64,000 nucleotides of DNA from NCBI RefSeq assembly GCF_003018255.1, contig NZ_CP027440.1; one strand, 5' to 3'. The position numbers and the translations under genes are program-made. The stretch comes from Escherichia coli. GTDB lineage: Bacteria > Pseudomonadota > Gammaproteobacteria > Enterobacterales > Enterobacteriaceae. Under the pieces are notes generated by a model. That model did no database searches, was not told the origin of the DNA, and saw only the letters and a program-made list of their open reading frames with translations. This document shows positions 19,861 to 57,175 of this stretch, piece by piece. Each line of letters begins with the position of its first letter. The first letter of the stretch is position 1.

Positions 19861-20349
<489 letters not shown>

Positions 20350-20377
20350 ATTATACATACTTAACCACCGAACGCAA
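20350..20377 (-). promoter_or_regulatory. Candidate S10 operon sigma70 promoter
   Basis: Minus-strand TTGCGT - 16 nt - TATAAT read in sequence about 175 nt upstream of rpsJ. Confidence 0.65.
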
Positions 20378-20409
20378 GCGTATTGCTAGTAAAGTAAACA
20401 GCCTTCGGG

Positions 20410-20829
20410 TTATCTCTCAAGTTCGTTCAGCGCATTTTTGACACGCTCTCTTAAACCGGCTTTCTCGTCGCTTTCTTCTACAGTATTTTCTTCGTCTTCA
20501 GAAGAAGAGGGAGCATTCTCAACCGCGACGTCTGGGTCATCTTCCTCCTCGACGGATTCGACGACGGGGAGTGGCTGTTTTTTGAAGAAATAGTGTTGTG
20601 TTGATTGTTTAAAAGCGGGCGTTTCAGCCTCTACAGTGACTTCTGCTTTTACTATCCAAAGCGCCCATAGCTGCCTGGCATACCCACCAACCAACACCAT
20701 TCCTGCAAACCACAGGCAAATCAGCAATAAACAAATGACATATATTATGGTGCTGTGTTTTTGTCGGGAGAAGATACCAGGGTGACCTGTTTCTTTCTGC
20801 TCACGCGCGGCGATATAGAATTCAAACAT
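20410..20829 (-). CDS. gspB: Type II secretion accessory protein GspB
   Basis: ORF track 139 aa; single TM segment and acidic C-terminal region; immediately downstream of gspA. Confidence 0.85.
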   Translation of the reverse strand: MFEFYIAAREQKETGHPGIFSRQKHSTIIYVICLLLICLWFAGMVLVGGYARQLWALWIVKAEVTVEAETPAFKQSTQHYFFKKQPLPVVESVEEEDDPDVAVENAPSSSEDEENTVEESDEKAGLRERVKNALNELER

Positions 20830-20830
20830 G

Positions 20831-22300
20831 TCATTTCCCCTTCACTGTTGTTTCCGGGGAAATATTTGCTTCATCCCGATATAAGTAGGCACTCTCCCCT
20901 GCCACCTGCCAGAGATGTACTAACGTTGAAAAGCCAACAACACCGTCAGTTTTCAAGTGGTGGCTTTTTTGAAATTGCTTTATTTTTTCTACCAACAAGG
21001 GACGCCACTCTGCCGAAGGTTCTGTCGAAATATGCAATGCGCGGTTTAACATCGTTTCCAGCCAGAGAATCTCTTCCTCGCTGCTATCACGCGTAATGGT
21101 ACTCTCCCCTTCCGGCGACATTTTCCATAACAGAAGATAATCACCCGTCCATACCGACTCAAACCATTGATGTGTCAGCGTCCAGGTTTGCTGCCCTACG
21201 AGGACATCAACGGTAGCATCACCGACGCGAACGACCACAACAGGCAATTTTTTGTCCCCGACTTTAAGCGATGCGATCCAGGGCAAATTCTGATCTACCA
21301 ATGTTTGTAAAGAAGCATTCCCACTTTTACATGCCAGCCCCGCTCTTACTGCCTGATCGCACCAGGCCGAATCAGCTGGGACCTCGTACCCCCATACGCC
21401 GTATAACACGCTTAGCGCCTCACTATCGCGCATCACTACATGAGCAATATCCTTAGTCATATCTTGTTTAACTACTGGCGTTACGGGTACCAGCCACGCA
21501 GGAACGGGGAACGGATCTGTGAAAGAGGACAGCAGTAGCCAACCACAGGTAAGTGCGATAATGGTTCCACTCATCACCACGGCAAGCTGCATTTTCCGGG
21601 GGCGGTTATCACCTAATACGCGGTAAATCATTCGCCAATGTTTTGCAGTGAAAACGCTGGTCTGCTCGGCTTGCTGTAATAAGCTAATTGTTTCGCCGGC
21701 AAGCGCCAGCTTTCTGCGATCTCCCCGACATAATAAAGCTATCCGTTTCAGAACTCTGGCAGTTAAAAGGAGATCGGGCTGGTCAATATTCTGACCTTCA
21801 AGGATGCTTGCCTTAAGCTCGTGCTCCATCAGACGTCCTGTTGAGACAAGTTCAATGCCCTGTTTTTTAAAATCACGTTCGACTTTTCGATCGGGTCTGC
21901 CGATCAGCAAAAATTGACCGTCAGGAATAAGAGATATCGCGCGTTGGAGATCATCAAGTATGCGGCGGTGATTCAGGTGAGCATTTTCAATAATAATAAG
22001 AGGGCAGCGACTATCAGTTCGATGAAGCGCATGCAGTAATTGACCCGCCATCTCATCTCGCGTCCAGGCGCTGTCACGGCAGCCCTGTTCAGCCGCATTA
22101 TCGTCGGTAACGATCCATGCGGCCTTACCTTGCGAGGAAACAACGAGGCTTAAAGTAATCACACGGCGATGTTTATCTTTTTGTAGTTGCTGCGCCAGCC
22201 AGGTTTTTCCACTTCCAGCCTCACCCAACAAATAGCACAGACGCCAGGTCTGACGTTTCTCACGCAACCAGGAAAGAATAACTTCTCTTCTCGTAGACAT
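20831..22300 (-). CDS. gspA: Type II secretion accessory ATPase GspA
   Basis: ORF track 489 aa; Walker A GEAGSGKT near the N-terminus. Confidence 0.9.
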   Translation of the reverse strand: MSTRREVILSWLREKRQTWRLCYLLGEAGSGKTWLAQQLQKDKHRRVITLSLVVSSQGKAAWIVTDDNAAEQGCRDSAWTRDEMAGQLLHALHRTDSRCPLIIIENAHLNHRRILDDLQRAISLIPDGQFLLIGRPDRKVERDFKKQGIELVSTGRLMEHELKASILEGQNIDQPDLLLTARVLKRIALLCRGDRRKLALAGETISLLQQAEQTSVFTAKHWRMIYRVLGDNRPRKMQLAVVMSGTIIALTCGWLLLSSFTDPFPVPAWLVPVTPVVKQDMTKDIAHVVMRDSEALSVLYGVWGYEVPADSAWCDQAVRAGLACKSGNASLQTLVDQNLPWIASLKVGDKKLPVVVVRVGDATVDVLVGQQTWTLTHQWFESVWTGDYLLLWKMSPEGESTITRDSSEEEILWLETMLNRALHISTEPSAEWRPLLVEKIKQFQKSHHLKTDGVVGFSTLVHLWQVAGESAYLYRDEANISPETTVKGK

Positions 22301-22479
22301 AGAACTTCCTGTTTTAATTATTGATTATCCTTAATCATAAAAATAATGTATGCATTTATTAATTAAATACATATTACTAATATAAATAAATTTTGCTTGA
22401 TTCATGCAAGCGGCATTAATACTATTTATACTAACGTCAATATACAACCCACCCAATCTATTTTATTAGAACATACATC
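22301..22479. promoter_or_regulatory. AT-rich divergent gspA / gspC control region
   Basis: 179-bp intergenic region, by eye well over 75% A+T with A/T tracts; divergent gene starts on both sides. Confidence 0.6.
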
Positions 22480-23295
22480 GTGCCCACACTACGCTTCCCC
22501 TTCCATCTGGCGAATCATAATAAAGATGCTGCCATCAATATATTGATTATATTTATAAGCATAGGGTTGATTATTTTTAATGTGAATTATTTCCATACAA
22601 CTATAGTTAAAAATGGACAGATCATTAATCAACCAACAAACGCATTTCAGTCTGAGTTCAGCCTTGCCGCTTTATGGCGTAACGAAAATCATGCTGGGGT
22701 AAAAGATGCAAATCCCGTGGCAGTTAATCAGGAAACACCTAAGCTCTCTATAGCGCTTAATGGCATTGTACTCACATCGAATGATGAGACTTCTTTTGTC
22801 TTAATTAATGAGGGGAGCGAACAAAAGCGATACTCCCTCAACGAAGCCCTTGAGTCAGCGCCGGGAACGTTTATTAGAAAAATAAATAAAACCAGCGTTG
22901 TGTTTGAAACTCACGGGCATTACGAAAAAGTAACTCTCCATCCAGGGCTACCTGACATCATCAAGCAGCCTGATTCAGAAAGTCAAAATGTACTCGCTGA
23001 TTATATTATCGCCACGCCGATACGTGATGGAGAACAGATATACGGGCTTCGATTGAACCCTCGTAAGGGCCTCAATGCATTTACCACCAGCTTGCTACAA
23101 CCAGGGGATATCGCCCTCAGGATCAATAATCTTTCGCTGACCCACCCTGATGAGGTTTCACAGGCATTAAGTTTACTGCTAACTCAACAAAGTGCTCAGT
23201 TTACAATTCGTCGCAACGGCGTACCCCGCTTGATAAATGTTTCCGTCGCGGAACTTACAGGAATGAATGGACAGCGTCATGAAAGGACTCAATAA
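22480..23295 (+). CDS. gspC: Type II secretion protein GspC
   Basis: ORF track 271 aa; GTG start; N-terminal TM segment. Confidence 0.88.
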
Positions 23296-25231
23296 AATCA
23301 CCTGCTGCTTGCTGGCAGCACTACTCATGCCTTGTGCAGGGCACGCTGAGAACGAACAATACGGCGCTAACTTCAATAACGCCGATATCCGCCAGTTCGT
23401 GGAAATAGTGGGTCAGCATCTTGGCAAAACGATCCTGATCGACCCTTCGGTACAGGGAACCATTTCCGTACGCAGTAATGATACGTTTAGCCAACAGGAG
23501 TACTACCAGTTCTTTTTAAGTATTCTTGATCTTTACGGTTATTCCGTGATCACGCTGGACAATGGTTTTCTGAAAGTGGTGCGCTCAGCTAATGTAAAAA
23601 CATCGCCAGGGATGATTGCTGACAGTTCTCGTCCAGGCGTAGGTGATGAGTTGGTCACCCGAATCGTACCGCTTGAGAACGTTCCTGCTCGTGACCTGGC
23701 TCCCCTGCTCCGCCAGATGATGGATGCGGGTAGCGTCGGTAATGTTGTGCATTATGAACCCTCCAACGTTCTTATTCTGACCGGTCGTGCCTCCACCATT
23801 AATAAACTGATTGAAGTCATAAAGCGCGTTGATGTCATCGGCACAGAGAAGCAGCAAATTATTCATCTGGAATATGCGTCAGCGGAAGATCTCGCCGAAA
23901 TTTTGAATCAATTAATCAGCGAAAGCCACGGTAAAAGCCAGATGCCTGCCCTCCTTTCCGCGAAGATTGTGGCGGATAAGCGAACCAACTCTCTTATCAT
24001 CAGCGGGCCGGAAAAAGCACGCCAGCGCATCACTTCATTACTGAAAAGCCTTGATGTAGAAGAGAGCGAGGAAGGAAATACTCGGGTTTATTACCTGAAA
24101 TATGCTAAAGCCACGAATCTGGTGGAAGTGCTAACCGGTGTTTCCGAAAAGCTGAAAGATGAAAAAGGGAATGAGCGTAAGCCCTCCTCTTCTGGCGCGA
24201 TGGATAACGTCGCCATTACCGCCGATGAACAGACTAACTCTCTGGTCATTACCGCTGACCAGTCCGTCCAGGAAAAACTCGCCACGGTAATTGCGCGTCT
24301 GGACATTCGCCGTGCACAGGTGCTGGTTGAGGCAATCATCGTTGAAGTTCAGGATGGAAATGGACTTAACCTCGGCGTGCAATGGGCGAATAAAAACGTT
24401 GGAGCACAGCAATTTACCAATACCGGATTACCGATTTTTAACGCTGCGCAAGGTGTGGCTGATTATAAAAAGAATGGTGGGATCACCAGCGCGAATCCTG
24501 CCTGGGATATGTTTAGCGCCTACAATGGCATGGCCGCAGGCTTTTTCAATGGCGACTGGGGCGTATTGTTGACTGCGCTGGCCAGTAACAATAAAAATGA
24601 CATCCTCGCCACCCCGAGCATCGTAACGCTGGATAATAAACTCGCGTCCTTCAACGTTGGTCAGGATGTGCCGGTGCTATCTGGCTCTCAGACCACTTCT
24701 GGGGATAACGTCTTTAATACTGTCGAACGCAAAACGGTGGGCACAAAACTCAAAGTCACTCCGCAGGTCAATGAAGGCGACGCGGTACTGCTCGAAATAG
24801 AGCAGGAGGTTTCCAGCGTTGACTCTTCGTCTAATTCGACGCTCGGCCCGACATTTAACACCCGAACTATTCAAAATGCCGTGCTGGTCAAAACCGGTGA
24901 AACGGTGGTCCTGGGCGGATTGCTGGATGATTTTTCTAAAGAGCAAGTGTCAAAGGTTCCTCTGCTTGGCGATATTCCTTTAGTGGGGCAACTCTTCCGC
25001 TATACTTCGACCGAGCGCGCTAAACGCAACCTGATGGTATTTATCCGCCCAACGATTATCCGTGACGATGATGTTTATCGCTCACTGTCAAAAGAGAAAT
25101 ACACCCGCTACCGTCAGGAGCAACAACAGCGAATCGACGGGAAATCAAAAGCGCTGGTTGGCTCGGAAGATTTGCCGGTGCTGGATGAGAACACGTTCAA
25201 CAGCCATACCCCTGCGCCCTCGGCACGGTAA
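23279..25231 (+). CDS. gspD: Type II secretion outer-membrane secretin GspD
   Basis: ORF track 23267..25231; start placed at second in-frame ATG ([23 protein letters not shown], signal peptide), 650 aa; overlaps gspC 3' end. Confidence 0.9.
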
Positions 25232-25240
25232 GGCATTCTT

Positions 25241-26722
25241 ATGAGAATTCACTCACCGTACCCCGCCAGTTGGGCGCTGGCACAACGAATTGGTTATCTC
25301 TATTCAGAGGGCGAGATTATTTATCTCGCCGATACGCCATTCGAACGGTTACTCGATATTCAACGTCAGGTTGGCCAGTGCCAGACCATGACCAGCTTGT
25401 CACAGGCTGATTTTGAAGCCCGGCTGGAAGCGGTGTTCCATCAGAATACCGGTGAGTCGCAACAGATTGCGCAGGATATCGATCAATCCGTCGATCTTCT
25501 CTCGCTTTCGGAAGAGATGCCCGCAAATGAAGATCTCCTGAATGAAGATTCAGCGGCACCGGTTATCCGCTTGATCAATGCGATTTTGAGTGAGGCCATC
25601 AAAGAAACCGCCTCCGATATCCACATTGAAACCTATGAAAAAACAATGTCGATCCGTTTTCGCATCGACGGCGTTTTGCGGACAATTTTACAGCCAAACA
25701 AAAAACTGGCGGCACTGCTTATCTCCCGAATTAAGGTCATGGCTCGTCTTGATATCGCCGAAAAACGTATTCCACAGGATGGACGTATTAGTTTGCGTAT
25801 CGGGCGACGTAACATAGATGTCCGCGTATCCACACTGCCGTCCATCTATGGTGAACGCGCCGTGCTCCGTCTGCTGGATAAAAACAGCCTCCAGCTTTCA
25901 TTGAACAACCTGGGGATGACGGCAGCGGATAAACAGGATTTAGAAAATCTCATCCAGCTTCCACACGGTATTATCCTGGTGACCGGACCGACAGGCTCCG
26001 GTAAAAGCACCACGCTCTACGCCATCCTTTCGGCGCTGAATACTCCCGGCCGCAATATTCTGACGGTAGAAGATCCCGTGGAATATGAGCTGGAAGGCAT
26101 TGGGCAAACGCAGGTGAATACCCGTGTGGATATGTCTTTCGCTCGCGGCCTGCGCGCCATACTTCGCCAGGACCCGGATGTCGTCATGGTGGGGGAAATT
26201 CGTGATACAGAAACCGCGCAGATTGCGGTTCAGGCCTCGCTCACCGGCCATCTGGTACTCTCAACACTCCACACTAACAGTGCATCAGGCGCAGTGACCC
26301 GGCTCCGCGACATGGGCGTCGAATCATTCCTGCTTTCGTCTTCCCTGGCAGGGATTATCGCGCAACGTCTGGTTCGTCGCCTGTGTCCGCAATGCCGACA
26401 ATTCACGCCCGTATCACCCCAACAAGCGCAGATGTTTAAATATCATCAGCTCGCGGTGACAACAATTGGCACTCCCGTAGGCTGCCCTCATTGCCATCAA
26501 TCCGGCTATCAGGGGCGCATGGCGATCCACGAAATGATGGTGGTGACGCCGGAATTACGGGCCGCTATTCATGAAAATGTGGATGAACAAGCACTGGAGC
26601 GACTGGTCCGGCAACAACACAATGCCTTAATCAAAAATGGCCTGCAAAAAGTGATAAGCGGTGACACCTCCTGGGATGAGGTTATGCGCGTCGCCAGTGC
26701 CACGCTGGAGAACGAAGCATGA
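25241..26722 (+). CDS. gspE: Type II secretion ATPase GspE
   Basis: ORF track 493 aa; Walker [11 protein letters not shown]-terminal tetracysteine (CPQC...CPHC). Confidence 0.95.
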
Positions 26723-27915
26723 ATTATCGCTATCGCGCCATGACCCAGGATGGTCAAAAATTGCAGGGGATCATTGATGCTAACGATGAACGTCAGGCAC
26801 GACTGCGGCTGCGTGAAGAAGGGCTTTTCCTGCTGGATATTCGCCCCCAAAAAAGTTCGGGAGTAAAAACACGTCGCCCGAGGATCAGCCATAGTGAACT
26901 GACGCTTTTCACCCGGCAGTTGGCAACCTTAAGCGCAGCGGCATTACCTCTGGAAGAGAGCCTTGCCGTAATCGGTCAACAAAGCAGTAATAAACGACTG
27001 GCTGATGTGTTAAATCAGGTACGCAGCGCCATCCTTGAAGGGCATCCCCTTTCCGATGCGTTACAACATTTTCCCACGCTTTTCGATTCGCTCTACCGTA
27101 CCCTGGTTAAAGCGGGCGAAAAGAGCGGGCTGCTGGCCCCGGTGTTGGAAAAACTGGCTGATTACAATGAAAATCGGCAGAAAATCCGCAGCAAACTCAT
27201 TCAGTCGCTGATCTACCCCTGCATGCTGACTGCGGTGGCGATTGTGGTCGTGATTATTCTCCTCACTGCTGTCGTGCCCAAAATTACCGAACAGTTCGTG
27301 CATATGAAGCAGCAACTGCCGCTGAGTACACGCATTCTTTTAGGTCTGAGCGACACGTTGCAACATACCGGCCCGACATTACTAGCGACAGTGTTTATTG
27401 TCGCTGTAGGTTTCTGGCTCTGGTTAAAACGCGGCAATAACCGCCACCGTTTTCATGCCATGTTGCTGCGCGTTGCACTCATCGGCCCGCTGATTTGCGC
27501 CATTAACAGCGCACGCTATCTCCGCACTTTAAGTATTTTGCAATCCAGCGGCGTCCCTCTGCTGGATGGGATGAATTTGTCCACCGAAAGTCTCAGCAAC
27601 CTCGAAATCCGCCAGCGTCTGGCAAATGCGGCAGAAAACGTTCGGCAGGGTAACAGCATTCATCTTTCGCTGGAACAAACGGCAATCTTCCCGCCGATGA
27701 TGCTCTACATGGTGGCCTCTGGCGAAAAAAGCGGGCAGCTCGGCACGTTAATGGTCAGAGCAGCAGATAACCAGGAGACACTCCAACAAAATCGGATCGC
27801 CTTAACGCTCTCCATCTTCGAGCCAGCACTCATTATTACGATGGCACTGATCGTCCTGTTTATTGTCGTCTCGGTACTCCAACCTCTTCTTCAACTTAAC
27901 TCAATGATTAATTAA
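26719..27915 (+). CDS. gspF: Type II secretion inner-membrane platform protein GspF
   Basis: ORF track 398 aa; 4-nt overlap with gspE. Confidence 0.93.
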
Positions 27916-27924
27916 GGAAAGTAT

Positions 27925-28362
27925 ATGCGCGCAACGGATAAGCAACGCGGTTTTACATTACTGGAAATTATGGTGGTGATCGTCATCATTGGCGTACTTG
28001 CCAGCCTGGTGGTTCCCAACCTGATGGGCAATAAAGAAAAGGCGGATAAACAAAAAGCCGTCAGCGATATTGTGGCGCTGGAAAACGCCCTGGATATGTA
28101 CAAGCTCGACAATCATCGCTATCCAACCACAAATCAGGGACTTGAATCCTTAGTCGAAGCGCCGACACTGCCACCGCTGGCCGCAAACTATAACAAGGAA
28201 GGTTATATCAAGCGTCTGCCTGCCGATCCCTGGGGCAATGATTATGTCCTCGTTAATCCTGGTGAACATGGTGCATACGATCTGCTTTCAGCAGGGCCCG
28301 ATGGTGAAATGGGAACCGAGGACGACATCACCAACTGGGGTTTGAGCAAGAAGAAAAAGTAA
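27925..28362 (+). CDS. gspG: Major pseudopilin GspG
   Basis: ORF track 145 aa; prepilin leader with [12 protein letters not shown]. Confidence 0.95.
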   Translation: MRATDKQRGFTLLEIMVVIVIIGVLASLVVPNLMGNKEKADKQKAVSDIVALENALDMYKLDNHRYPTTNQGLESLVEAPTLPPLAANYNKEGYIKRLPADPWGNDYVLVNPGEHGAYDLLSAGPDGEMGTEDDITNWGLSKKKK

Positions 28363-28369
28363 GTCAGCG

Positions 28370-28879
28370 ATGAATCAGCAACGCGGGTTTACCCTGCTGG
28401 AGATGATGCTGGTGCTGGCGCTGGTCGCTATCACGGCAAGTGTGGTGCTCTTCACATATGGTCGGGAGGATGCCGCCAACACTCGTGCGCGCGAAACAGC
28501 GGCGCGGTTTACCGCTGCACTTGAATTAGCCATCGACAGCGCTACGCTCAGTGGTCAGCCTGTCGGTATCCATTTCTCTGATTCAGCATGGCGCATTATG
28601 GTACCGGGCAAAACACCATCAGCCTGGCGCTGGGTTCCATTACAAGAAGATGCCGCAGACGAGAGCAAAAATGACTGGGATGAAGAACTCTCAATTCATC
28701 TTCAGCCATTTAAACCTGATGACAGCAACCAACCGCAGGTGGTGATTCTGGCCGACGGACAAATCACGCCCTTCTCTTTGTTGATGGCTAACGCAGGGAC
28801 CGGTGAGCCGCTCCTGACGTTAGTCTGTTCAGGATCATGGCCCCTGGATCAAACGCTCGCCAGAGATACCCGCCCATGA
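28370..28879 (+). CDS. gspH: Minor pseudopilin GspH
   Basis: ORF track 169 aa; [10 protein letters not shown] prepilin motif. Confidence 0.92.
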
Positions 28880-29253
28880 ACAAACAATCAGGGATGACAC
28901 TGCTTGAAGTCTTACTGGCGATGAGTATTTTCGCCACTGTTGCGCTGGCTTTAATGAGCAGCATGCAAGGGCAACGAAATGCCATCGAGCGGATGCGTAA
29001 TGAGACGCTGGCGCTGTGGATCGCAGATAACCAGCTTAAGTCGCAAGATACATTCAACGATGAAAACACGTCCAGTTCAGGCAAAGAGATAATTAATGGC
29101 GAAGAGTGGAACTGGCGCAGCGATGTCCATTCAAGCAAAGACGGCACGCTTCTGGAACGCACCATAACGGTGACGTTACCCAACGGTCAGAAAACCGCTC
29201 TGACTCGTTATCAGAGCATCCATGATAGATCCGGGCAGGCGCAAGATGATTAA
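28876..29253 (+). CDS. gspI: Minor pseudopilin GspI
   Basis: ORF track 28837..29253; start set to ATG 28876 ([12 protein letters not shown]...), overlapping gspH stop as ATGA. Confidence 0.9.
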
Positions 29254-29833
29254 TCGCCAACAGGGTTTCACATTGCTGGAAGTCATGGCGGCACTGGCGA
29301 TCTTCTCAATGCTTGGCGTGCTGGCGTTTATGGTTTTTTCGCAAGCGTCTACGCTACATCAACGCTCACAGAAAGAAATCCAGCAGTTCAATCAACTGCA
29401 ACGCACCATCACCATTCTTGATAACGATCTCCTGCAACTGGTCGCTCGCCGAAATCGGAGTACGGATAAAATCATGGTGTTGGGTGAAGAGGCTATTTTT
29501 ACCACGCAAAGTCGCGATCCGCAGGCCCCGCTCAATGAAGCGCAAACCTTACAAACGGTTCACTGGTATCTGCGAAATCATACGCTTTACCGTGCTGTTC
29601 GTACTTCTGTGGATGGCAGGAAGGATCAACCTGCCCAGGCGATGCTGGAACATGTCGAGAGCTTTCTTCTGGAAAGTAACAGCGGGGAAAGCAAAGAACA
29701 TCCTCTCTCAGTCACGCTACATCTGAAGACTCAGCAATATGGGGCACTACAGCGTCGTTTTGCATTACCTGAGCAATTAGCAAGAGAAGAGTCGCCAGCC
29801 CAGACTCAGGCCGGGAATAATAACCATGAATAA
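29246..29833 (+). CDS. gspJ: Minor pseudopilin GspJ
   Basis: ORF track 29222..29833; start set to ATG 29246 ([13 protein letters not shown]...). Confidence 0.9.
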
Positions 29834-30809
29834 TGAACAACGCGGCGTCGCGCTGCTCATTGTATTGATGCTACTGGCGCTCATGGCTGCACTGGCAGCA
29901 GACATGACGAGCAGTTTTCACGGCCAGCTTCAGCGAACCCGCCAGGTAAACCATCATCTGCAACGGCAATATGATATTGAACTGGCGGAGAAACTTGCGC
30001 TTGCCAGCCTCACCCAGGACGTTAAAGATAACGACAGACAGACCACGTTGCAGCAGTACTGGGCACAGCCGCAACAGTTGCAGCTGGAAGATGGCAATAC
30101 AGTGAAGTGGCAGTTACGCGATGCCCAGCACTGTTTTAATCTCAATGCGTTAGCAAAAATCTCTGACGATCCGCTGGCTTCCCCCGATTTCCCCGCCCAG
30201 GTATTCAGTGCGCTGCTGATTAACGCCGGTATCGATCGCGGAAACACCGATGAGATCGTGCAATCAATTGCTGACTATATTGATGTCGATGACTCACCAC
30301 GCTTTCACGGCGCAGAAGATAACTTTTACCAAAGCCAGACGCCGCCCCGGCATAGTGCCAATCAGATGCTTTTTCTGACCGGCGAATTGCGTCAGATAAA
30401 AGGCATAACCGAAAACATCTATCAGCGGCTTATCCCGTATGTCTGCGTTCTCCCAACCACGGAACTTAGCATCAATCTTAATATGCTTACGGAGAACGAT
30501 ATTCCGCTCTTCAGAGCGTTATTCCTCAATAACATCACGGATGCTGACGCTCGGGTCTTATTACAAAAAAGGCCCAGGGAAGGCTGGCTAACCACGGATG
30601 CATTTCTTTACTGGGCGCAGCAGGATTTCTCCGGCGTGAAGCCTCTGGTAGCTCAGGTGAAAGGGCATCTCTTTCCCTATAGCCGCTATTTTACGCTGAG
30701 TACGGAAAGTATCAGCGACGAACAATCCCAGGGATGGCAAAGCCATATTTTCTTCAACCGTAAACAGCAGAGCGCCCAAATCTATCGGCGTACGCTGCAA
30801 CTCTACTAA
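29826..30809 (+). CDS. gspK: Minor pseudopilin GspK
   Basis: ORF track 327 aa. Confidence 0.9.
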   Translation: MNNEQRGVALLIVLMLLALMAALAADMTSSFHGQLQRTRQVNHHLQRQYDIELAEKLALASLTQDVKDNDRQTTLQQYWAQPQQLQLEDGNTVKWQLRDAQHCFNLNALAKISDDPLASPDFPAQVFSALLINAGIDRGNTDEIVQSIADYIDVDDSPRFHGAEDNFYQSQTPPRHSANQMLFLTGELRQIKGITENIYQRLIPYVCVLPTTELSINLNMLTENDIPLFRALFLNNITDADARVLLQKRPREGWLTTDAFLYWAQQDFSGVKPLVAQVKGHLFPYSRYFTLSTESISDEQSQGWQSHIFFNRKQQSAQIYRRTLQLY

Positions 30810-30820
30810 TCATAAGGATC

Positions 30821-31987
30821 GTGATGCCTGAATCGTTGATGGTCATACGTTCTTCCTCGACGCTGCGTAAGCATTGGGAATGGATGACGTTCTCCGCAGA
30901 TAGCGTATCTTCGGTACATACGCCCACGGACGATCTTCCGCTGGAGTCGCTGGCCGATCAGCCCGGTGCCGGAAATGTTCATCTTTTGATCCCACCAGAG
31001 GGCCTTTTATATCGTTCCCTCACGCTGCCCAACGCCAAATACAAACTCACCGCACAAACATTGCAATGGCTGGCAGAGGAGACGTTACCCGACAACACCC
31101 AGGACTGGCACTGGACGGTTGTCGATAAACAAAACGAAAGTGTCGAGGTGATAGGCATTCAGTCGGAGAAACTCAGTCGCTATCTTGAGCGTTTACATAC
31201 TGCCGGACTCAACGTGACGCGGGTTTTGCCAGATGGCTGCTATCTTCCCTGGGAAGTAGATAGCTGGACTCTGGTTAACCAGCAAACAAGCTGGCTTATT
31301 CGCAGTGCCGCACATGCCTTCAATGAACTGGATGAACACTGGTTACAGCATCTTGCTGCCCAGTTTCCGCCTGAGAATATGCGTTGTTATGGTGTGGCAC
31401 CTCACGGCGTTGCAGCGACCAATCCACTTATCCAGCATCCTGAAATACCATCACTGAGTTTGTATTCTGCCGATATTGCATTCCAGCGCTATGACATGCT
31501 GCATGGTGTTTTTCGTAAACAGAAAACTGTAAGCAAATCGGGAAAATGGCTCGCCCGCCTGGCAGTAAGCTGTCTCGTTCTCGCCATTCTTTCTTTTGTT
31601 GGCAGCCGGGGCATCGCGCTCTGGCAAACGCTTAAGATTGAAGATCAACTTCAGCATCAACAGCAAGAAACCTGGCAACGTTATTTCCCGCAGATCAAAC
31701 GCACCCACAACTTTCGTTTTTACTTTAAGCAGCAACTCGCTCAGCAATATCCTGAAGCTGTGCCGTTGCTCTATCATTTACAAACACTTCTGCTGGAACA
31801 CCCTGAACTGCAGTTAATGGAGGCGAACTATAGCCAGAAGCAAAAGTCGCTGACCTTAAAAATGAGTGCTAAGAGTGAAGCCAATATCGATCGTTTCTGT
31901 GAATTAACACAGTCCTGGCTTCCGATGCAAAAAACAGAAAAAGATCCGGTCAGTGGTGTATGGACAGTAAGGAGCTCAGGGAAATGA
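30821..31987 (+). CDS. gspL: Type II secretion inner-membrane protein GspL
   Basis: ORF track 388 aa; start could be the second ATG at 30824. Confidence 0.88.
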   Translation: MMPESLMVIRSSSTLRKHWEWMTFSADSVSSVHTPTDDLPLESLADQPGAGNVHLLIPPEGLLYRSLTLPNAKYKLTAQTLQWLAEETLPDNTQDWHWTVVDKQNESVEVIGIQSEKLSRYLERLHTAGLNVTRVLPDGCYLPWEVDSWTLVNQQTSWLIRSAAHAFNELDEHWLQHLAAQFPPENMRCYGVAPHGVAATNPLIQHPEIPSLSLYSADIAFQRYDMLHGVFRKQKTVSKSGKWLARLAVSCLVLAILSFVGSRGIALWQTLKIEDQLQHQQQETWQRYFPQIKRTHNFRFYFKQQLAQQYPEAVPLLYHLQTLLLEHPELQLMEANYSQKQKSLTLKMSAKSEANIDRFCELTQSWLPMQKTEKDPVSGVWTVRSSGK

Positions 31988-32445
31988 TTAAATCATGGTG
32001 GGCAGAAAAATCCACATCGGAAAAACAGCTCGTTGCGGCGCTGGCGGTTCTCTCGCTCGGCGTTTTTTGTTGGCTTGGGGTGATAAAACCGATAGATACC
32101 TACATTGCAGAGCATCAGTCCCACGCGCAAAAAATTAAGAAGGACATCAAATGGATGCAGGATCAAGCGAGCACCCATGGTTTACTCGGTCATCCTGCGC
32201 TTACGCAGCCCATCAAAAATATCCTTCTCGAGGAAGCAAAACGTGAGAATTTGGCTATCACGCTGGAAAACGGTCCGGACAATACTCTGACAATTCATCC
32301 TGTCACAGCTCCCCTCGAAAACGTCTCCCGCTGGCTCACTACGGCACAGATTACATACGGTATTGTTATTGAAGACCTTCAGTTTACTCTTGCCGGAAAC
32401 GAACAGATCACCCTCAAGCATTTGTCCTTCAGGGAGCAACCATAA
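31984..32445 (+). CDS. gspM: Type II secretion inner-membrane protein GspM
   Basis: ORF track 31960..32445; start set to ATG 31984 (MIKSWWAEKS...), overlapping gspL stop. Confidence 0.88.
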   Translation: MIKSWWAEKSTSEKQLVAALAVLSLGVFCWLGVIKPIDTYIAEHQSHAQKIKKDIKWMQDQASTHGLLGHPALTQPIKNILLEEAKRENLAITLENGPDNTLTIHPVTAPLENVSRWLTTAQITYGIVIEDLQFTLAGNEQITLKHLSFREQP

Positions 32446-33122
32446 TGACAATGCTACTGCCGCTCTTCATTCTGGTTGGTTTTATTGCAGGTTATTTTGT
32501 TAATGCCATGGCCTATCACCTCTCGCCGTTGGAGGATAAAACGGCGTTAACGTTTCGCCAGGTATTGGTTCATTTCAGGCAAAAAAAATATGCCTGGCAT
32601 GATACAGTGCCCCTGATACTTTGCGTTGCTGCTGCTATCGCCTGCGCCCTGGCACCTTTCACGCCCATCGTGACTGGCGCACTCTTTCTCTATTTCTGTT
32701 TCGCACTCACGCTCAGTGTTATTGATTTTCGCACTCAGCTCCTGCCCGACAAACTCACCTTACCGCTGCTCTGGCTTGGCTTGGTATTTAATGCGCAGTC
32801 TGGATTAATTGATTTACATGATGCGGTTTATGGCGCGGTAGCTGGCTATGGGGTGCTGTGGTGTGTTTACTGGGGCGTCTGGTTAGTTTGTCACAAAGAG
32901 GGATTGGGCTACGGTGATTTCAAGCTACTGGCCGCTGCAGGCGCGTGGTGTGGCTGGCAAACGTTGCCAATGATACTGCTAATTGCCTCACTGGGTGGCA
33001 TTGGTTACGCCATCGTTTCACAACTTCTGCAACGCCGGACTATAACCACTATCGCATTCGGCCCGTGGCTTGCGCTCGGCAGCATGATAAACCTGGGGTA
33101 TCTGGCCTGGATCTCGTATTAA
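32445..33122 (+). CDS. gspO: Prepilin peptidase / N-methyltransferase GspO
   Basis: ORF track 225 aa; polytopic membrane protein. Confidence 0.92.
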   Translation: MTMLLPLFILVGFIAGYFVNAMAYHLSPLEDKTALTFRQVLVHFRQKKYAWHDTVPLILCVAAAIACALAPFTPIVTGALFLYFCFALTLSVIDFRTQLLPDKLTLPLLWLGLVFNAQSGLIDLHDAVYGAVAGYGVLWCVYWGVWLVCHKEGLGYGDFKLLAAAGAWCGWQTLPMILLIASLGGIGYAIVSQLLQRRTITTIAFGPWLALGSMINLGYLAWISY

Positions 33123-33150
33123 CCGGGAGGGTTCTCCCTCCCGACACGGC

Positions 33151-33627
33151 TCAACTTTCTTCGCGGATCTGTGCTTGCAGATAATTTTGCAGGCCCATCT
33201 TCTGAATCAGATCAAGTTCCGTTTCCAGCCAGTCGATATGGCCTTCTTCATCACGCAAAATTTCTATCATCATATCGCGGCTGACGTAATCATGAACGCT
33301 ATCGGCATAACCAATTGCCTCACGCAAATTCTTCGCGCCATCCAGCTCAAGTGCCAGATCAGAACGCAGCATTTCCTCAACATCCTCACCAATGTTCAGT
33401 TTGCCCAGGTCCTGTAAATTTGGAAGACCTTCCAGAAAAAGAATGCGCTCAATATAACGATCGGCGTGTTTCATCTCATCAATGGATTCATGATACTCCA
33501 CATCATTGAGACGTTTGAGACCCCAGTTTTTAAACATCCGGGCATGGAGAAAGTACTGATTGATTGCGACAAGCTCATTTCCCAACAGTTTGTTGAGATA
33601 ATTTATAACCTTAGTATCACCTTTCAT
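33151..33627 (-). CDS. bfr: Bacterioferritin
   Basis: ORF track 158 aa; [37 protein letters not shown]... Confidence 0.97.
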
Positions 33628-33698
33628 TTTTTGACTCCTTCGCTTCCACTCTTTGAAGCGTAGAACGGCTTACGAGTAAGTCAAAAAACACACTCCGT

Positions 33699-33893
33699 TT
33701 ATGCGGACTCCTTAAACTCCGGCAACTGCATTAATTCATCCTCCATCACTTCACGCGCGGCCCGGACACATTTACCGCACTGATTGCCGACCGGAATAAA
33801 TTTTTTTAATTGCTGGAACGAGTGAGGGGAAAACTGGCGCACAGCCTGACGAATTTTTTTATCGCTGATACCATTACAAAGACAAACGTACAT
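33699..33893 (-). CDS. bfd: Bacterioferritin-associated [2Fe-2S] ferredoxin
   Basis: ORF track 64 aa; four Cys (C4, C6, C39, C42 pattern MYVCLCNG...CGKC). Confidence 0.93.
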   Translation of the reverse strand: MYVCLCNGISDKKIRQAVRQFSPHSFQQLKKFIPVGNQCGKCVRAAREVMEDELMQLPEFKESA

Positions 33894-33920
33894 AGAGACT
33901 CCCGTATACTTTCTTCAAAA

Positions 33921-33950
33921 ATAAATGAAAATAGTTCTTATTTCAATTAC
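33921..33950 (-). promoter_or_regulatory. Putative Fur-box-like A/T-rich site upstream of bfd
   Basis: Minus strand gtaattgaaataagaactattttcattt about 30-60 nt upstream of bfd start; resembles the A/T-rich hexamer-repeat Fur consensus. Eye match only. Confidence 0.3.
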
Positions 33951-34023
33951 GGAAAGACTCTTTTTTAAGCAAAGAATAGAAATATGAATAAAAATAATGG
34001 GCTACCAAAAGTAGCCCATTGAC

Positions 34024-34054
34024 AAAAAATGCGGCGATACCGGAAGGTATCGCC
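34024..34054 (-). terminator. Rho-independent terminator after chiA
   Basis: Hairpin ggcgatacc-ggaa-ggtatcgcc followed on minus strand by a 6-nt U-run, 8 nt after chiA stop. Confidence 0.7.
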
Positions 34055-34061
34055 AACACAT

Positions 34062-36764
34062 TTATTGCTTAGTAAACGGCGCGAAGATTTCGCTAAATGC
34101 GTACTTCGGTGCCTGTTCTTTAGTCAGGCCGTGGAATTCCGGAGACAGGTTAGTGCCGCCTGGCAGGTCGCGCGCGATTGACCAGATACCAACCATACCG
34201 AGATTACGCTTCTGCGCATCCTGCATGACCAGACGAGCATCAGAGAGATAGAACACCTCGCCCTGAACGTCGTTCACGCCAACCATCGGCGTGGTACCCA
34301 TCATAGCGTCAATTTCTGCATCGCTCTTATTGGGATGGAGGCCTTTCAATTGTGAATGCAGGTTGGCAATCGCAGACGTTGCACACTTACCGTGAATGTT
34401 CTGGCCTTCGGTATTTGCAGACTGACAAATCGCGTTACCGTAGTCCATTGTCATCACGTTCACACCCGCCAGCTCAACACCTTTCGCTTTGGCATCGCTC
34501 AGGACATTCATCCCTTCCGGCGTCAGGCCAGTCGGCAGAATTGGCAAGGTGTACCAGATAGCAATATCTTTGCCCTCTGACTTCCATTTATCCTGCACTT
34601 TCTTCACAGCAAGGTTACGACGTTCAATAGATGCCTGATCCGCAACCCAGGTGCCTTCGATATCGAAGTCCAGGACTCTGAGGTTCAGGTTATCAACGAT
34701 GTCATAATAATGCTGCATCAGATCGTCTACGTTCTTACAGGAAGCAGCCAGCGGAGCGTTGTTAGCACCACCGATAGACAGCATCACATCGCCGCCAGCT
34801 TCACGCAGAGCTTTGATTTTGCTGTACTGAGCGTAATTCTGCATACCGTAAGCGGTACCCCATGTCGGCAGACAGGTGTTCGCATCTTTACTCACCACAA
34901 ACGCCAGCGTGAAGTGGTTGACGTTATGATTCTTAGCCAGCGCAGCCAGATCCGGGATCGTATTCAGCGTAAAGTCAACATACGGTGCATAAACGTGTTT
35001 CGGCCACGCTTTCTTCGGCGTACCTACACGTTCTTTGGTTCCGGTCCAGTCAACAAAAACACGCCACGGGTTGCTGTCAGAAGGAGAAACTTTCTGCACT
35101 TTACTCTGAGAAATGTAGTTCGCACCGTTAAAGCGAATCAGCGTATCGCTGGCATAAAGCGTTTCTGGATTAAACTGCGGCGCATTATTCAGCTCTTCGT
35201 TGCTATAGCTCTGAGCCTTACCTAACGGCTTCCACGGGCGGCTATTGCTACCGGTGGCGTTTTGGTTCGCAACCAGAGCAGGGTTGTCGCTTTGCGTCCA
35301 GAACAGCGCTTCATAAGCCTGCCCATCAACAACAACGCGATCACCTTTCACGTACACGGTGGAAGCGGACCATGCTTTCGCCGGTTCGTATTTCTTCCAC
35401 GGGTTATCGCCGCCCGGGACAAAGCCCCATGCGTCTTGATCGACAGAGGTTTTATAATGTGCATCGTTATAATCTACGATGCTGTTCGCGCTGTACGCTT
35501 TGCTGGCCTGGAAACCATCCGCAACAATGACGCCGCCATTATCAATTTCACAGGTAGTTGGGTTACCGTACTGACTCATTTCCGCAGCGGTAGCTGTACG
35601 CACGAGACGCCATGGGTTATTGGAGTTTTCTGCACTAGTGCCACGTGGGCAATCTTCAGAACCAACCCACCAGGCATTCTGATAAACATTACCATTGAAG
35701 ATAACATGGTAAATTTCGCTACCTTCCTGGCCACTCCACGCCTGCAGTGAGTAATCGTTACTGCTATCCGCTGGTGTTGATGGCTCGTTATTATCCGGAG
35801 TAGGAGTAACTGGAGTTACCGGTGTTTCCGGAGTTGGATCAACCGGAGTCACAGCACCGCTATTATTATCCGGCTTAACGGAACAGGAACCCGGATTACC
35901 ATACTGGCTGATTTCTGTTGCCGTTGCCGCGCGAACATAACGCCATGGGTTGCTGGCATCGTTTTCTTTCGCATCGCCTGGGCAATTTGCCGCGCCTACC
36001 CACCAGGCGTTCTTATAAATGCCGCCGTTGTAGATAACGTACCATGTAGAAGAACCTTCCTGACCTTTCCAGGCTACGACAGCATAGTTGTCGTTTGACT
36101 TATCAGCTGGAGCTGGCTGAACATCAGGAGCCGGTTTAACGTCCGGTGCCGGTTTCACATCCGGCGCAGGCTGTGGTGCTGAAGTACAGGACTGTGGATT
36201 ACTGGTTTCTGAGATTTCCGTTGCCGTAGCGGCACGAACATAACGCCATGGGTTGCTGGCATCATTGCCTTTCGCATCACCCGGGCAGTTAGAAGAGGCT
36301 ACCCACCAGGCATTTTTATATACCGCACCATTAAAGACGACATACCAGGTCTGACCGCCCTGCTGTTTATTCCAGGCAACTACAGAAGAATTAGACGGAA
36401 CAGTGCCCTGTGCTGGTGTAGCCGAACCGCCATTAGCCGGCGTATTGGATGCAGGCGTATTTGAATTTGAAGAAGATGAGCTGCCGCTCTTTTCGCAGGA
36501 AAGTGTATTGCCAAACTGACTAATTTCAGCAGCTGTCGCGGTACGCTTTAAACGCCATGGGTTAGTTGCATCATTTGCTTTTGCTTTTCCCGGGCAATTT
36601 GTAGAAGAAACCCACCAGGCATTTTCATAAATTTTGCCATCGAAAATAACCTGATATTTATTACCACCTTGTTGGTTATTCCATACTTCCATTGCCAATG
36701 CTGGCAGAGCGGAACACACCAGCCCCATACCAATCATAGATTTAGTAAATATATTTAATTTCAT
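34062..36764 (-). CDS. chiA: Periplasmic/secreted endochitinase with four N-terminal chitin-binding-type modules
   Basis: ORF track 900 aa; signal peptide; four repeated ~65-aa W/C-rich modules (NAWWV...CPG...NPWR), Pro/Thr linkers, C-terminal catalytic domain. Confidence 0.92.
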   Translation of the reverse strand: MKLNIFTKSMIGMGLVCSALPALAMEVWNNQQGGNKYQVIFDGKIYENAWWVSSTNCPGKAKANDATNPWRLKRTATAAEISQFGNTLSCEKSGSSSSSNSNTPASNTPANGGSATPAQGTVPSNSSVVAWNKQQGGQTWYVVFNGAVYKNAWWVASSNCPGDAKGNDASNPWRYVRAATATEISETSNPQSCTSAPQPAPDVKPAPDVKPAPDVQPAPADKSNDNYAVVAWKGQEGSSTWYVIYNGGIYKNAWWVGAANCPGDAKENDASNPWRYVRAATATEISQYGNPGSCSVKPDNNSGAVTPVDPTPETPVTPVTPTPDNNEPSTPADSSNDYSLQAWSGQEGSEIYHVIFNGNVYQNAWWVGSEDCPRGTSAENSNNPWRLVRTATAAEMSQYGNPTTCEIDNGGVIVADGFQASKAYSANSIVDYNDAHYKTSVDQDAWGFVPGGDNPWKKYEPAKAWSASTVYVKGDRVVVDGQAYEALFWTQSDNPALVANQNATGSNSRPWKPLGKAQSYSNEELNNAPQFNPETLYASDTLIRFNGANYISQSKVQKVSPSDSNPWRVFVDWTGTKERVGTPKKAWPKHVYAPYVDFTLNTIPDLAALAKNHNVNHFTLAFVVSKDANTCLPTWGTAYGMQNYAQYSKIKALREAGGDVMLSIGGANNAPLAASCKNVDDLMQHYYDIVDNLNLRVLDFDIEGTWVADQASIERRNLAVKKVQDKWKSEGKDIAIWYTLPILPTGLTPEGMNVLSDAKAKGVELAGVNVMTMDYGNAICQSANTEGQNIHGKCATSAIANLHSQLKGLHPNKSDAEIDAMMGTTPMVGVNDVQGEVFYLSDARLVMQDAQKRNLGMVGIWSIARDLPGGTNLSPEFHGLTKEQAPKYAFSEIFAPFTKQ
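35549..36689 (-). repeat. Intragenic tandem module repeats in chiA (~310-bp period) plus PAPDVK x3 micro-repeat
   Basis: Near-identical DNA stretches, e.g. gcgaacataacgccatgggttgctggcatc at ~35925 and gcacgaacataacgccatgggttgctggcatc at ~36235; PAPDVKPAPDVKPAPDV encoded at ~36115-36170. Confidence 0.8.
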
Positions 36765-36995
36765 TATAATCCCTTGTGACGTAAAAACTGCAAAACAAAA
36801 GTCCTACGCAGGAATTATTTACGTTTTACGAGAACCCTTCAATATGAATTAAATTACGGCATTAAAAATAAGAAAAAAGCCTGACAAAAGAAGCATTTTA
36901 AAAACAGAAACATTCATATTTAAGATATTAAATTTAATTTATATTTTAAATATGAATAATTTATTCGTTCTGACAGTACGAATAAGATATGCAGT
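36765..36995 (-). promoter_or_regulatory. AT-rich chiA upstream/promoter region
   Basis: About 230 bp of very A+T-rich sequence with A/T tracts between tufA terminator and chiA start. Confidence 0.5.
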
Positions 36996-37005
36996 CAACA
37001 AATGC

Positions 37006-37031
37006 AAAAAGGGCGCCGAAGCGCCCTTTTT
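37006..37031 (-). terminator. Rho-independent terminator after tufA (str operon end)
   Basis: aaaaa-gggcgc-cgaa-gcgccc-ttttt, a perfect symmetric hairpin 25 nt after tufA stop. Confidence 0.85.
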
Positions 37032-37055
37032 AATTCGAAACTAATTAACGTGTAA

Positions 37056-38297
<1,242 letters not shown>

Positions 38298-38310
38298 TTA
38301 ACCCTTAGGC

Positions 38311-40437
<2,127 letters not shown>

Positions 40438-40521
40438 TTATCTTTTAGGCGTTCAATTTAAGTAGCCCAAAGCGGGCTGCTTACTGGAAGCGCCCGCCTG
40501 GTGACTAAAACTCCGAAGGGA

Positions 40522-41566
<1,045 letters not shown>

Positions 41567-55866: not shown

Positions 55867-57105
<1,239 letters not shown>

Positions 57106-57175
57106 TTACGCATAAACCAATGTGAAATTATAATCACAAAATATGCATAAAAAATCACTTAATAGCAATCAGAAA

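What the first reader, a model, noticed from the sequence alone, without database searches (positions are those of the whole stretch)
36765..36995. AT-rich region upstream of chiA adjacent to the tufA terminator
About 230 bp of A/T-rich sequence (many runs such as aaatttaatttatattttaaatatgaataatttatt) sit between the strong tufA terminator hairpin (37006-37031) and the chiA start. Read-through from the highly expressed str operon would otherwise drive chiA, so this region is probably both an insulator and a silenced promoter.
Basis: inference. Interest (0 to 1): 0.25.

Follow-up and report, generated by a model that had tools for sequence, protein, structure and literature searches.

The report
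Silenced chiA promoter after tufA terminator
The A/T-rich stretch is the already characterised, H-NS-silenced promoter region of the E. coli chitinase gene chiA, sitting just behind the ordinary hairpin terminator that ends the highly expressed tufA operon, so it is real but not new.

Summary
Window 36765-36995 is 26% G+C against 50.6% for the window, and it overlaps the most A/T-rich 231-bp stretch in all 64 kb. It lies between a textbook intrinsic terminator (37005-37032, minus strand) and the chiA start codon (36764).

The window is E. coli. This spacer is the published chiA promoter region. The transcription start mapped in K-12 corresponds to window 36807. A sigma-70-like promoter found by an independent scan sits exactly in front of it: TTGAAG, 17 nt, AATAAT. 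Published work reports that H-NS represses the promoter, that an hns stpA mutant derepresses it, and that BglJ-RcsB activates it.

Comparative data add context:
- 58% of 5,426 complete E. coli genomes carry this chiA spacer.
- 42% have bfd directly after the same terminator, as do Yersinia, Tatumella and Pluralibacter.
- Homology breaks 2 nt after the terminator's T-tract.

So the A/T-rich promoter arrived with an accessory insertion, and the terminator predates it.

"Silenced promoter" is supported. "Insulator" applies to the terminator, not demonstrably to the A/T-rich DNA. Two A/U-rich palindromes downstream of the terminator remain unexplained. Verdict: already known, low interest.

The parts
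37056..38240 (-). tufA (EF-Tu), last gene of the str operon (rpsL-rpsG-fusA-tufA)
   Evidence: RefSeq annotation of the 100%-identical strain 104; ORF list
37038..37058 (-). Small A/U-rich hairpin that includes the tufA stop codon. It lies in the ~52 nt shared by both haplotypes.
   Evidence: RNA fold; conserved in the chiA-less strain
37005..37032 (-). Intrinsic terminator of tufA and the str operon. The stem is AAAAAGGGCGC / GCGCCCUUUUU with a UUCG loop, followed by a U5 tract. It is a perfect palindrome with A5/T5 flanks, so it is potentially bidirectional.
   Evidence: Terminator scan; inverted repeat I8; -18.3 kcal/mol, z -5.1; the same hairpin lies between tuf and bfd in Yersinia, Tatumella and Pluralibacter
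37003..37004 (.). Junction of the presence/absence polymorphism. Identity with chiA-less E. coli ends 2 nt after the terminator T-tract.
   Evidence: Alignment; blastn shows 99.5% identity on the tufA side and no homology beyond window 37004; 3148 chiA-type against 2255 bfd-type genomes
36953..36993 (-). Palindrome/hairpin 2 (TTATTCGTACTG-T-CAGAACGAATAA), centred about -166 from the chiA start site. Function unknown.
   Evidence: Inverted repeat I2; -8.3 kcal/mol, z -2.65
36900..36958 (-). Palindrome/hairpin 3, made only of A/U pairs, followed by GUUUCUGUUUUU. It is centred about -128 from the chiA start site. It forms an uninterrupted 18-bp stem in the commonest of the seven alleles compared and carries one stem-breaking SNP in this window. 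Function unknown.
   Evidence: Inverted repeat I1; -11.5 kcal/mol, z -3.7 in this window; -15.2 kcal/mol, z -6.3 in that common allele; variation without compensatory change
36864..36904 (.). Run of A/T tracts (A5, A6, A4, T4A5) at -57 to -97 from the start site. This is typical of curved, H-NS-preferred upstream DNA.
   Evidence: Tract list. Curvature and H-NS binding are inferred, not computed.
36837..36842 (-). chiA promoter -35 hexamer, TTGAAG
   Evidence: Promoter scan; invariant in 7 alleles
36814..36819 (-). chiA promoter -10 hexamer, AATAAT (17-nt spacer)
   Evidence: Promoter scan; it lies 6 nt upstream of the mapped start site; an RpoS-holoenzyme SELEX peak lies 12 bp from the start site
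36807..36807 (-). chiA transcription start (G), transferred from K-12
   Evidence: Published start at NC_000913.2 position 3467918, by primer extension and 5'-RACE. The .2-to-.3 coordinate offset of 1978 was recalled from memory and checked against the recalled ~130-nt bgl leader, giving 131 nt. chiA ATG is at 3469853 in version .3, which puts the start 43 nt upstream. There are no indels against the window.
36765..36806 (-). chiA 5' UTR (43 nt counting the start site), with Shine-Dalgarno AAGGG at 36771-36775
   Evidence: Sequence; weak, non-significant fold
34062..36764 (-). chiA, a bifunctional chitinase/lysozyme (900 aa here, 897 aa in K-12)
   Evidence: RefSeq annotation; Pfam GH18 and CBM_5_12

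Best explanation
The A/T-rich DNA is the regulatory region of chiA. It holds a sigma-70-type promoter (-35 TTGAAG at 36842-36837, -10 AATAAT at 36819-36814, start site at 36807) embedded in about 200 bp of 26% G+C DNA. The nucleoid protein H-NS (with StpA) coats this DNA and keeps the promoter off under laboratory conditions. Removing H-NS, or supplying the BglJ-RcsB activator, switches it on.

The whole segment (A/T-rich promoter plus chiA) belongs to an accessory block inserted immediately downstream of the pre-existing tufA intrinsic terminator. That terminator, not the A/T-rich DNA, separates chiA from the heavily transcribed str operon.

Basis for each step:
- Shown here: composition, promoter elements, terminator structure, the insertion junction and population frequency.
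- Taken from the literature: start site, H-NS repression, BglJ-RcsB activation.
- Inferred: that H-NS occupies exactly this A/T-rich stretch, and that terminator read-through is negligible.
For: Composition extreme for the window.

Promoter. The only promoter-like site in 36300-37500 lies on the chiA strand, and its -10 ends 7 nt before the published start site.

Literature. [quoted passage not shown] The 5'-RACE product is very weak without BglJ. An intergenic-fragment lacZ fusion is activated by BglJ-RcsB. chiA is described as 'another H-NS silenced gene' in PMC5797941. An RpoS-holoenzyme SELEX peak at 3467930 lies in the chiA/tufA spacer.

Conservation. Core promoter and 5' UTR from -47 to the ATG are invariant in 7 alleles apart from one C/T site in the UTR. 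Variation is concentrated upstream of -47.

Accessory nature. 3148-3149 of 5426 genomes have the chiA spacer and 2255 have bfd directly after the terminator. The break is 2 nt after the T-tract. The tuf-terminator-bfd order is seen in Yersinia, Tatumella and Pluralibacter and reported for Salmonella.

Terminator quality. Up to 12 stem pairs (a 6-pair G+C core extended by A-U pairs), UUCG loop, U5 tract, -18.3 kcal/mol, z -5.1.
Against: No site within 2 mismatches of the high-affinity H-NS motif TCGATAAATT occurs in the region.

I could not read the primary Francetic papers. No H-NS ChIP table was available. H-NS occupancy of these exact bases therefore rests on secondary citations.

Read-through at the tufA terminator was not quantified. 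The Term-seq tables I could read list no 3' end at the terminator at all, so they say nothing either way.

All experiments are in K-12. This window is an avian isolate with 6 SNPs (97.5% identity) in the 240-bp spacer downstream of the terminator, plus 2 more in the tufA 3' UTR/terminator flank.
Confidence: 0.85

Rival explanations
1. The A/T-rich region is itself an active insulator. The two A/U-rich hairpins after the main terminator (36993-36953, and 36958-36911 followed by GUUUCUGUUUUU) would act as back-up terminators. In addition, or instead, a bridged H-NS filament would stall polymerases that escape the tufA terminator. This is compatible with the best explanation as an added layer.
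For: Hairpin 3 is an uninterrupted 18-bp stem in the commonest of the seven alleles compared (-15.2 kcal/mol, z -6.3; 0 of 200 shuffles fold as well) and is followed by a U-rich tract. The 120 nt after the terminator fold better than shuffles (z -2.95). The upstream gene is among the most heavily transcribed, and tandem terminators after such genes are an established pattern (rrnB T1-T2; general knowledge).
Against: The stems contain only A-U pairs and fail the terminator scan's requirement of at least 3 G-C pairs. The window and K-12 alleles each carry a stem-breaking SNP with no compensating change. The chiA-less haplotype and the outgroups manage with the single terminator about 85-125 bp before bfd. 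The read-through RNA is C-poor (12.5% C), so Rho-dependent back-up is not favoured.
Confidence: 0.2
2. The palindromes at about -128 and -166 are operator sites for a dimeric transcription factor that controls chiA. This could be an unidentified chitin- or envelope-responsive regulator, or the unmapped BglJ-RcsB site.
For: A long uninterrupted A/T-only inverted repeat (18-bp stem in the fold, 12-nt loop) and an 11-of-12 palindrome with mixed composition are more than an A/T-rich background readily gives. The octamer ATTCATAT occurs three times, once abutting the -35. No BglJ-RcsB box could be located at chiA by its investigators.
Against: Mutating predicted motifs about 150 bp upstream of the chiA start did not affect BglJ-RcsB activation. 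The inverted repeats are long for an operator. SNPs in natural alleles fall inside them. No candidate regulator was identified.
Confidence: 0.12
3. The A/T richness is a functionless by-product of ordinary intergenic composition or insertion scars, and chiA is silent simply because its promoter is weak.
For: The promoter matches only 9 of 12 consensus positions. Promoter-like sites are not enriched over shuffles (1 found against 1.9 expected).
Against: This is the most A/T-rich stretch in 64 kb. chiA is strongly derepressed without H-NS/StpA. The spacer is 95-100% conserved, mostly without indels, across about 3150 genomes.
Confidence: 0.03

Closest known systems
chiA (yheB) promoter of E. coli K-12, negatively controlled by H-NS (Francetic, Badaut, Rimsky and Pugsley 2000, Mol Microbiol 35:1506; re-examined by Salscheider et al. 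2014, PMC3950696)
   Same: It is the same locus. From -47 to the ATG the sequence is identical to K-12, including the -35, -10, start site, 5' UTR and Shine-Dalgarno. It has the same flanking genes and the same terminator.
   Different: This avian strain has 8 SNPs relative to K-12 across the whole tufA-chiA spacer, all more than 50 nt upstream of the -35, and three extra codons in chiA. No experiment has been done in this strain.
Other H-NS-silenced 'cryptic' E. coli loci: bgl, gspC-O/gspAB, hlyE, leuO
   Same: A/T-rich upstream DNA, accessory or horizontally acquired context, silence in the laboratory, and derepression by loss of H-NS or by antagonists such as BglJ-RcsB, SlyA and LeuO. The gspA/C spacer in this same window is even more A/T-rich.
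   Different: bgl is also silenced through a downstream element and is classically activated by IS insertion. For chiA only upstream/promoter control is documented. One natural IS1 insertion in the chiA promoter spacer was seen here, but its effect is unknown.
Canonical Rho-independent (intrinsic) terminators, here the tufA/str operon terminator
   Same: G+C-rich stem, stable UUCG tetraloop, 3' U-tract and complementary 5' A-tract.
   Different: Nothing unusual. The 22-mer core is so generic that it recurs in more than 120 unrelated genomes.
tufB terminator/secE promoter overlap ('operon concatenation', Brandis et al. 2019, PMC6735719)
   Same: It concerns how the end of a highly transcribed tuf operon affects the next promoter. 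The same paper notes that bfd-bfr-hopD were inserted between str and S10 in Salmonella.
   Different: In that case the terminator overlaps the next promoter, and polymerase load on the terminator is proposed to lower initiation at it. Here the chiA promoter lies about 200 bp beyond the terminator, with no overlap.

Membership tests
H-NS-silenced (xenogeneically silenced) promoter | DNA markedly more A/T-rich than the host genome | tested here: met
   26% against 50.6% G+C; the lowest 231-bp window in 64 kb; TpA steps 2.6 times the average
H-NS-silenced (xenogeneically silenced) promoter | Accessory or horizontally acquired context | tested here: met
   Present in 58% of complete E. coli genomes and absent in 42%. 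Sharp junction at the terminator. Outgroups have tuf-terminator-bfd.
H-NS-silenced (xenogeneically silenced) promoter | Derepression when hns (and stpA) are removed | not testable with these tools
   Literature only: qRT-PCR in a K-12 hns stpA mutant (PMC3950696), and Francetic 2000 as cited
H-NS-silenced (xenogeneically silenced) promoter | Physical H-NS occupancy of the region | not testable with these tools
   The primary paper and ChIP tables were not available
H-NS-silenced (xenogeneically silenced) promoter | High-affinity nucleation motif TCGATAAATT (an auxiliary feature, not strictly defining; motif recalled from Lang et al. 2007) | tested here: not met
   No match within 2 mismatches in 36701-37060
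Sigma-70-type promoter | -35 and -10 hexamers with a 16-18 nt spacer, correctly placed before a mapped start site | tested here: met
   TTGAAG-17-AATAAT (9 of 12). The published start site maps 7 nt after the last base of the -10.
Rho-independent terminator (37005-37032) | G+C-rich stem-loop immediately followed by a U-tract | tested here: met
Rho-independent terminator (37005-37032) | Efficient termination in vivo | not testable with these tools
   No usable 3'-end or read-through data found. Low wild-type chiA mRNA is indirect support.
Back-up intrinsic terminator (hairpin 36958-36911 plus U-rich tract) | G+C-containing stem followed by a U-tract | tested here: not met
   The stem is entirely A-U and was not reported by the scan, although the fold is significant
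Any curated RNA family (Rfam 15) | Covariance-model match | tested here: not met
   No match at E <= 1 in 33000-41000

The most novel reading that the evidence does not exclude
The two palindromes just downstream of the tufA terminator came in with the chiA insertion. One is an uninterrupted 18-bp A/U-only stem followed by a U-rich tract in the commonest of the seven alleles compared. They might form a dedicated second insulation layer, either as A/U-only back-up terminators or as a nucleation/bridging structure for H-NS, that lets a silenced foreign gene sit directly behind one of the most heavily transcribed operons in the cell.
Probability: 0.12. Interest if true: 0.35.

Novelty: already known. 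Interest (0 to 1): 0.1.

Why it matters
The finding adds little. It re-identifies a textbook arrangement: an intrinsic terminator ending the str operon, followed by the published H-NS-repressed chiA promoter.

The useful addition is evolutionary context. The A/T-rich promoter and chiA form an insertion whose boundary lies 2 nt after the terminator's T-tract, and it is present in only about 58% of complete E. coli genomes. The locus therefore shows how foreign genes can be parked next to a very active operon, using an existing terminator together with H-NS silencing.

ChiA has been linked to secretion by the cryptic type II system encoded in this same window, so strain-to-strain differences in this control region could affect when it is made.

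Tried and rejected
1. Rfam scan of 33000-41000 at E <= 1 found nothing.

2. The H-NS high-affinity motif TCGATAAATT has no match within 2 mismatches in the region.

3. I scanned 100,044 species genomes with the terminator 22-mer to see what follows tufA in other genera. Only four loci (Yersinia aldovae, Tatumella, Pluralibacter and L089) were informative after a tblastn filter.

4. The primary papers (Francetic 2000, EMBO J and Mol Microbiol) are not held. H-NS ChIP-seq supplements are not held.

5. The Term-seq supplement of Adams et al. 2021 lists no 3' end between bfr and tufA-internal positions in the text held. It could be used neither for nor against read-through.

6. Literature searches for Rho/bicyclomycin effects on chiA and for 'tufA terminator' strength gave nothing specific.

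7. Small ORFs in the spacer (22-37 aa) have no support. K-12 annotates nothing between chiA and tufA. I rejected them as chance ORFs.

8. By eye I considered CRP, LexA, Fur and NagC/Mlc sites in the palindromes. None fits consensus half-sites and spacing as I recall them. This was not a formal test.

9. One fold call used wrong coordinates and was repeated.

Full report
**What is there**

The window is Escherichia coli. The 601 bases around the finding are 100% identical to strain 104, a chicken isolate, and match 5,425 of 5,426 complete E. coli genomes at least in part. RefSeq annotation of that strain places everything on the minus strand, in this order: rpsL, rpsG, fusA (38311-40425), tufA (37056-38240), a 291-bp spacer, chiA (34062-36764), bfd, bfr, and then the gsp type II secretion genes. 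ChiA carries GH18 and CBM_5_12 domains.

**Checking the observation**

The stretch 36765-36995 is 26.0% G+C, against 50.6% for the window. Only 0.09% of all 231-bp windows are as A/T-rich, and all of those overlap this locus. The 64-kb minimum, 22.5%, is at 36732-36962.

Among the 25 annotated spacers of at least 60 bp, tufA/chiA ranks third lowest even with its G+C-rich terminator included. The lowest is gspC/gspA.

The arms are 37006-37016 and 37021-37031, perfectly complementary around a UUCG loop, with an A5 tract before and a U5 tract after. It folds at -18.3 kcal/mol, z = -5.1.

**What the region is**

The spacer is the known chiA promoter region.

- Salscheider et al. (PMC3950696) state that the chiA transcription start, 'previously mapped' by Francetic et al. 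2000 at NC_000913 position 3467918, was confirmed by 5'-RACE.
- I converted that coordinate. The paper uses genome version .2. The offset to version .3 is 1978, a figure I recalled from memory. I checked it with the bgl start site given in the same paper, which then falls 131 nt before bglG, matching the leader length of about 130 nt as I recall it.
- chiA begins at 3469853 in version .3, so the start site is 43 nt upstream of the ATG.
- K-12 and the window have no indels there, which gives window 36807, a G on the minus strand.

Independently, the only promoter-like site that the consensus scan found in 36300-37500 is on the minus strand: TTGAAG (36842-36837), a 17-nt spacer, then AATAAT (36819-36814). 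It ends 7 nt before that G. A genomic-SELEX peak for RpoS holoenzyme at 3467930, 12 bp from the start site, is listed in the chiA/tufA spacer (PMC5493296).

**How it works**

The literature describes chiA as an H-NS-silenced gene (PMC5797941; PMC3950696).

- In K-12 the chiA 5'-RACE product is 'very weak' without an activator.
- A lacZ fusion to the intergenic fragment is activated by BglJ-RcsB.
- chiA mRNA in an hns stpA mutant reaches the level seen with constitutive BglJ.

The sequence fits this account: extreme A/T content, TpA enrichment, and a series of A/T tracts at -57 to -97. There is no close match to the TCGATAAATT nucleation motif. I could not obtain the primary H-NS binding data, so H-NS occupancy of exactly these bases is inferred.

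**Insulation**

The element that separates chiA from the str operon is the intrinsic terminator, and it is older than chiA.

- In 2,255 complete E. coli genomes (42%) the same terminator is followed directly by bfd. In 3,148-3,149 genomes (58%) it is followed by the A/T-rich spacer and chiA.
- The two haplotypes are 99.5% identical on the tufA side and lose all similarity 2 nt after the terminator's T-tract.
- Yersinia aldovae, Tatumella morbirosei and Pluralibacter gergoviae have tuf, the same hairpin, then bfd. Brandis et al. report bfd-bfr-hopD between str and S10 in Salmonella.

So the A/T-rich promoter came in with chiA as an accessory insertion behind a pre-existing terminator. RNA read through from tufA would be U-rich and C-poor (12.5% C), which makes it a poor Rho substrate. 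The low wild-type expression of chiA next to one of the most transcribed genes implies that read-through is small, but I found no direct measurement.

**Unexplained detail**

Immediately after the terminator lie two palindromes.

- The first is 36993-36953: 11 of 12 positions palindromic around one base, -8.3 kcal/mol as RNA.
- The second is 36958-36911, made only of A/U pairs and followed by GUUUCUGUUUUU.

In five of the seven alleles compared the second palindrome forms an uninterrupted 18-bp stem (-15.2 kcal/mol, z = -6.3). The window and K-12 alleles each carry one stem-breaking SNP with no compensation.

They could be weak back-up terminators, protein-binding sites or H-NS-related structures. 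The investigators of BglJ-RcsB found that mutating motifs about 150 bp upstream did not affect activation. I rate each special role as unlikely but not excluded.

**Conservation**

Across about 3,150 genomes the 240-bp spacer is 95-100% identical, mostly without indels. In seven alleles spanning that range, everything from -47 to the ATG is invariant except one C/T site in the 5' UTR. Variation sits upstream of that.

**Comparison with what is known, and verdict**

This is the same locus as the published K-12 chiA promoter. It belongs with other H-NS-silenced cryptic loci (bgl, gsp, hlyE, leuO) and sits beside a canonical intrinsic terminator.

- The membership features I could test are met: A/T richness, accessory context, promoter geometry and terminator structure.
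- The experimental features (H-NS binding, derepression) rest on the literature.
- No Rfam family matches, and K-12 annotates nothing else in the spacer.

The finding is real and correctly read in its main point, but it is already known. Interest is low.

Noticed in passing
window 20173-37004 (from the tufA terminator towards rpsJ); compare L002:4300-6000: The whole block between the str and S10 operons exists as two very different haplotypes in E. coli. One is gspAB, gspC-O, bfr, bfd and chiA (this window; 58% of complete genomes). The other is a short version with a prepilin-peptidase gene, bfr and bfd (42%). bfr-bfd are only 77% identical at the DNA level between the two, while the adjacent tufA is 99.5% identical. 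This suggests replacement by a segment from another lineage, anchored on the conserved ribosomal operons.
   Followed up: partly
window 36827-36835 (L126:2572-3339): E. coli strain B27, from a housefly, has an IS1 element inserted between the -35 and -10 of the chiA promoter, with a 9-bp target duplication corresponding to window 36827-36835. This recalls IS insertions at the H-NS-silenced bgl promoter. Its effect on chiA is unknown.
   Followed up: partly
window 22301-22479: The divergent gspC/gspA spacer is the most A/T-rich intergenic region in the window (23.5% G+C). It is the published H-NS-repressed, SlyA-activated promoter region of the cryptic type II secretion system, which is thought to export ChiA.
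   Followed up: no
window 36900-36993: Two palindromes lie just after the tufA terminator. One is an uninterrupted 18-bp A/T-only stem plus a T-rich tract in five of the seven alleles compared, and is degraded by single SNPs in this window and in K-12. The octamer ATTCATAT occurs three times, once abutting the -35.
   Followed up: partly
window 37005-37032: The tufA terminator is a perfect palindrome with A5 and T5 flanks, so it could also stop plus-strand (antisense) transcription coming out of the A/T-rich region towards tufA. Its 22-nt core recurs in more than 120 unrelated bacterial genomes, so it is a generic, convergently arising hairpin.
   Followed up: partly
window 33894-34061: The chiA-bfd spacer (33% G+C) holds two hairpins after the chiA stop codon (gggctac...gtagccc and ggcgatacc...ggtatcgcc). 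It also holds an A/T-rich bfd promoter region with a sequence resembling a Fur box (aaatgaaaatagttcttatttcaat).
   Followed up: no
window 57092-57176: The pabA/argD spacer is also very A/T-rich (28% G+C over 85 bp). I did not examine it.
   Followed up: no
L003 (NZ_CP043195, K-12-derived strain PG20180062 from mouse gut): In this strain tufA is interrupted by an aph(3')-IIIa kanamycin-resistance gene and a hypothetical gene, leaving a tuf fragment next to the terminator. It looks like an engineered construct rather than natural variation.
   Followed up: no
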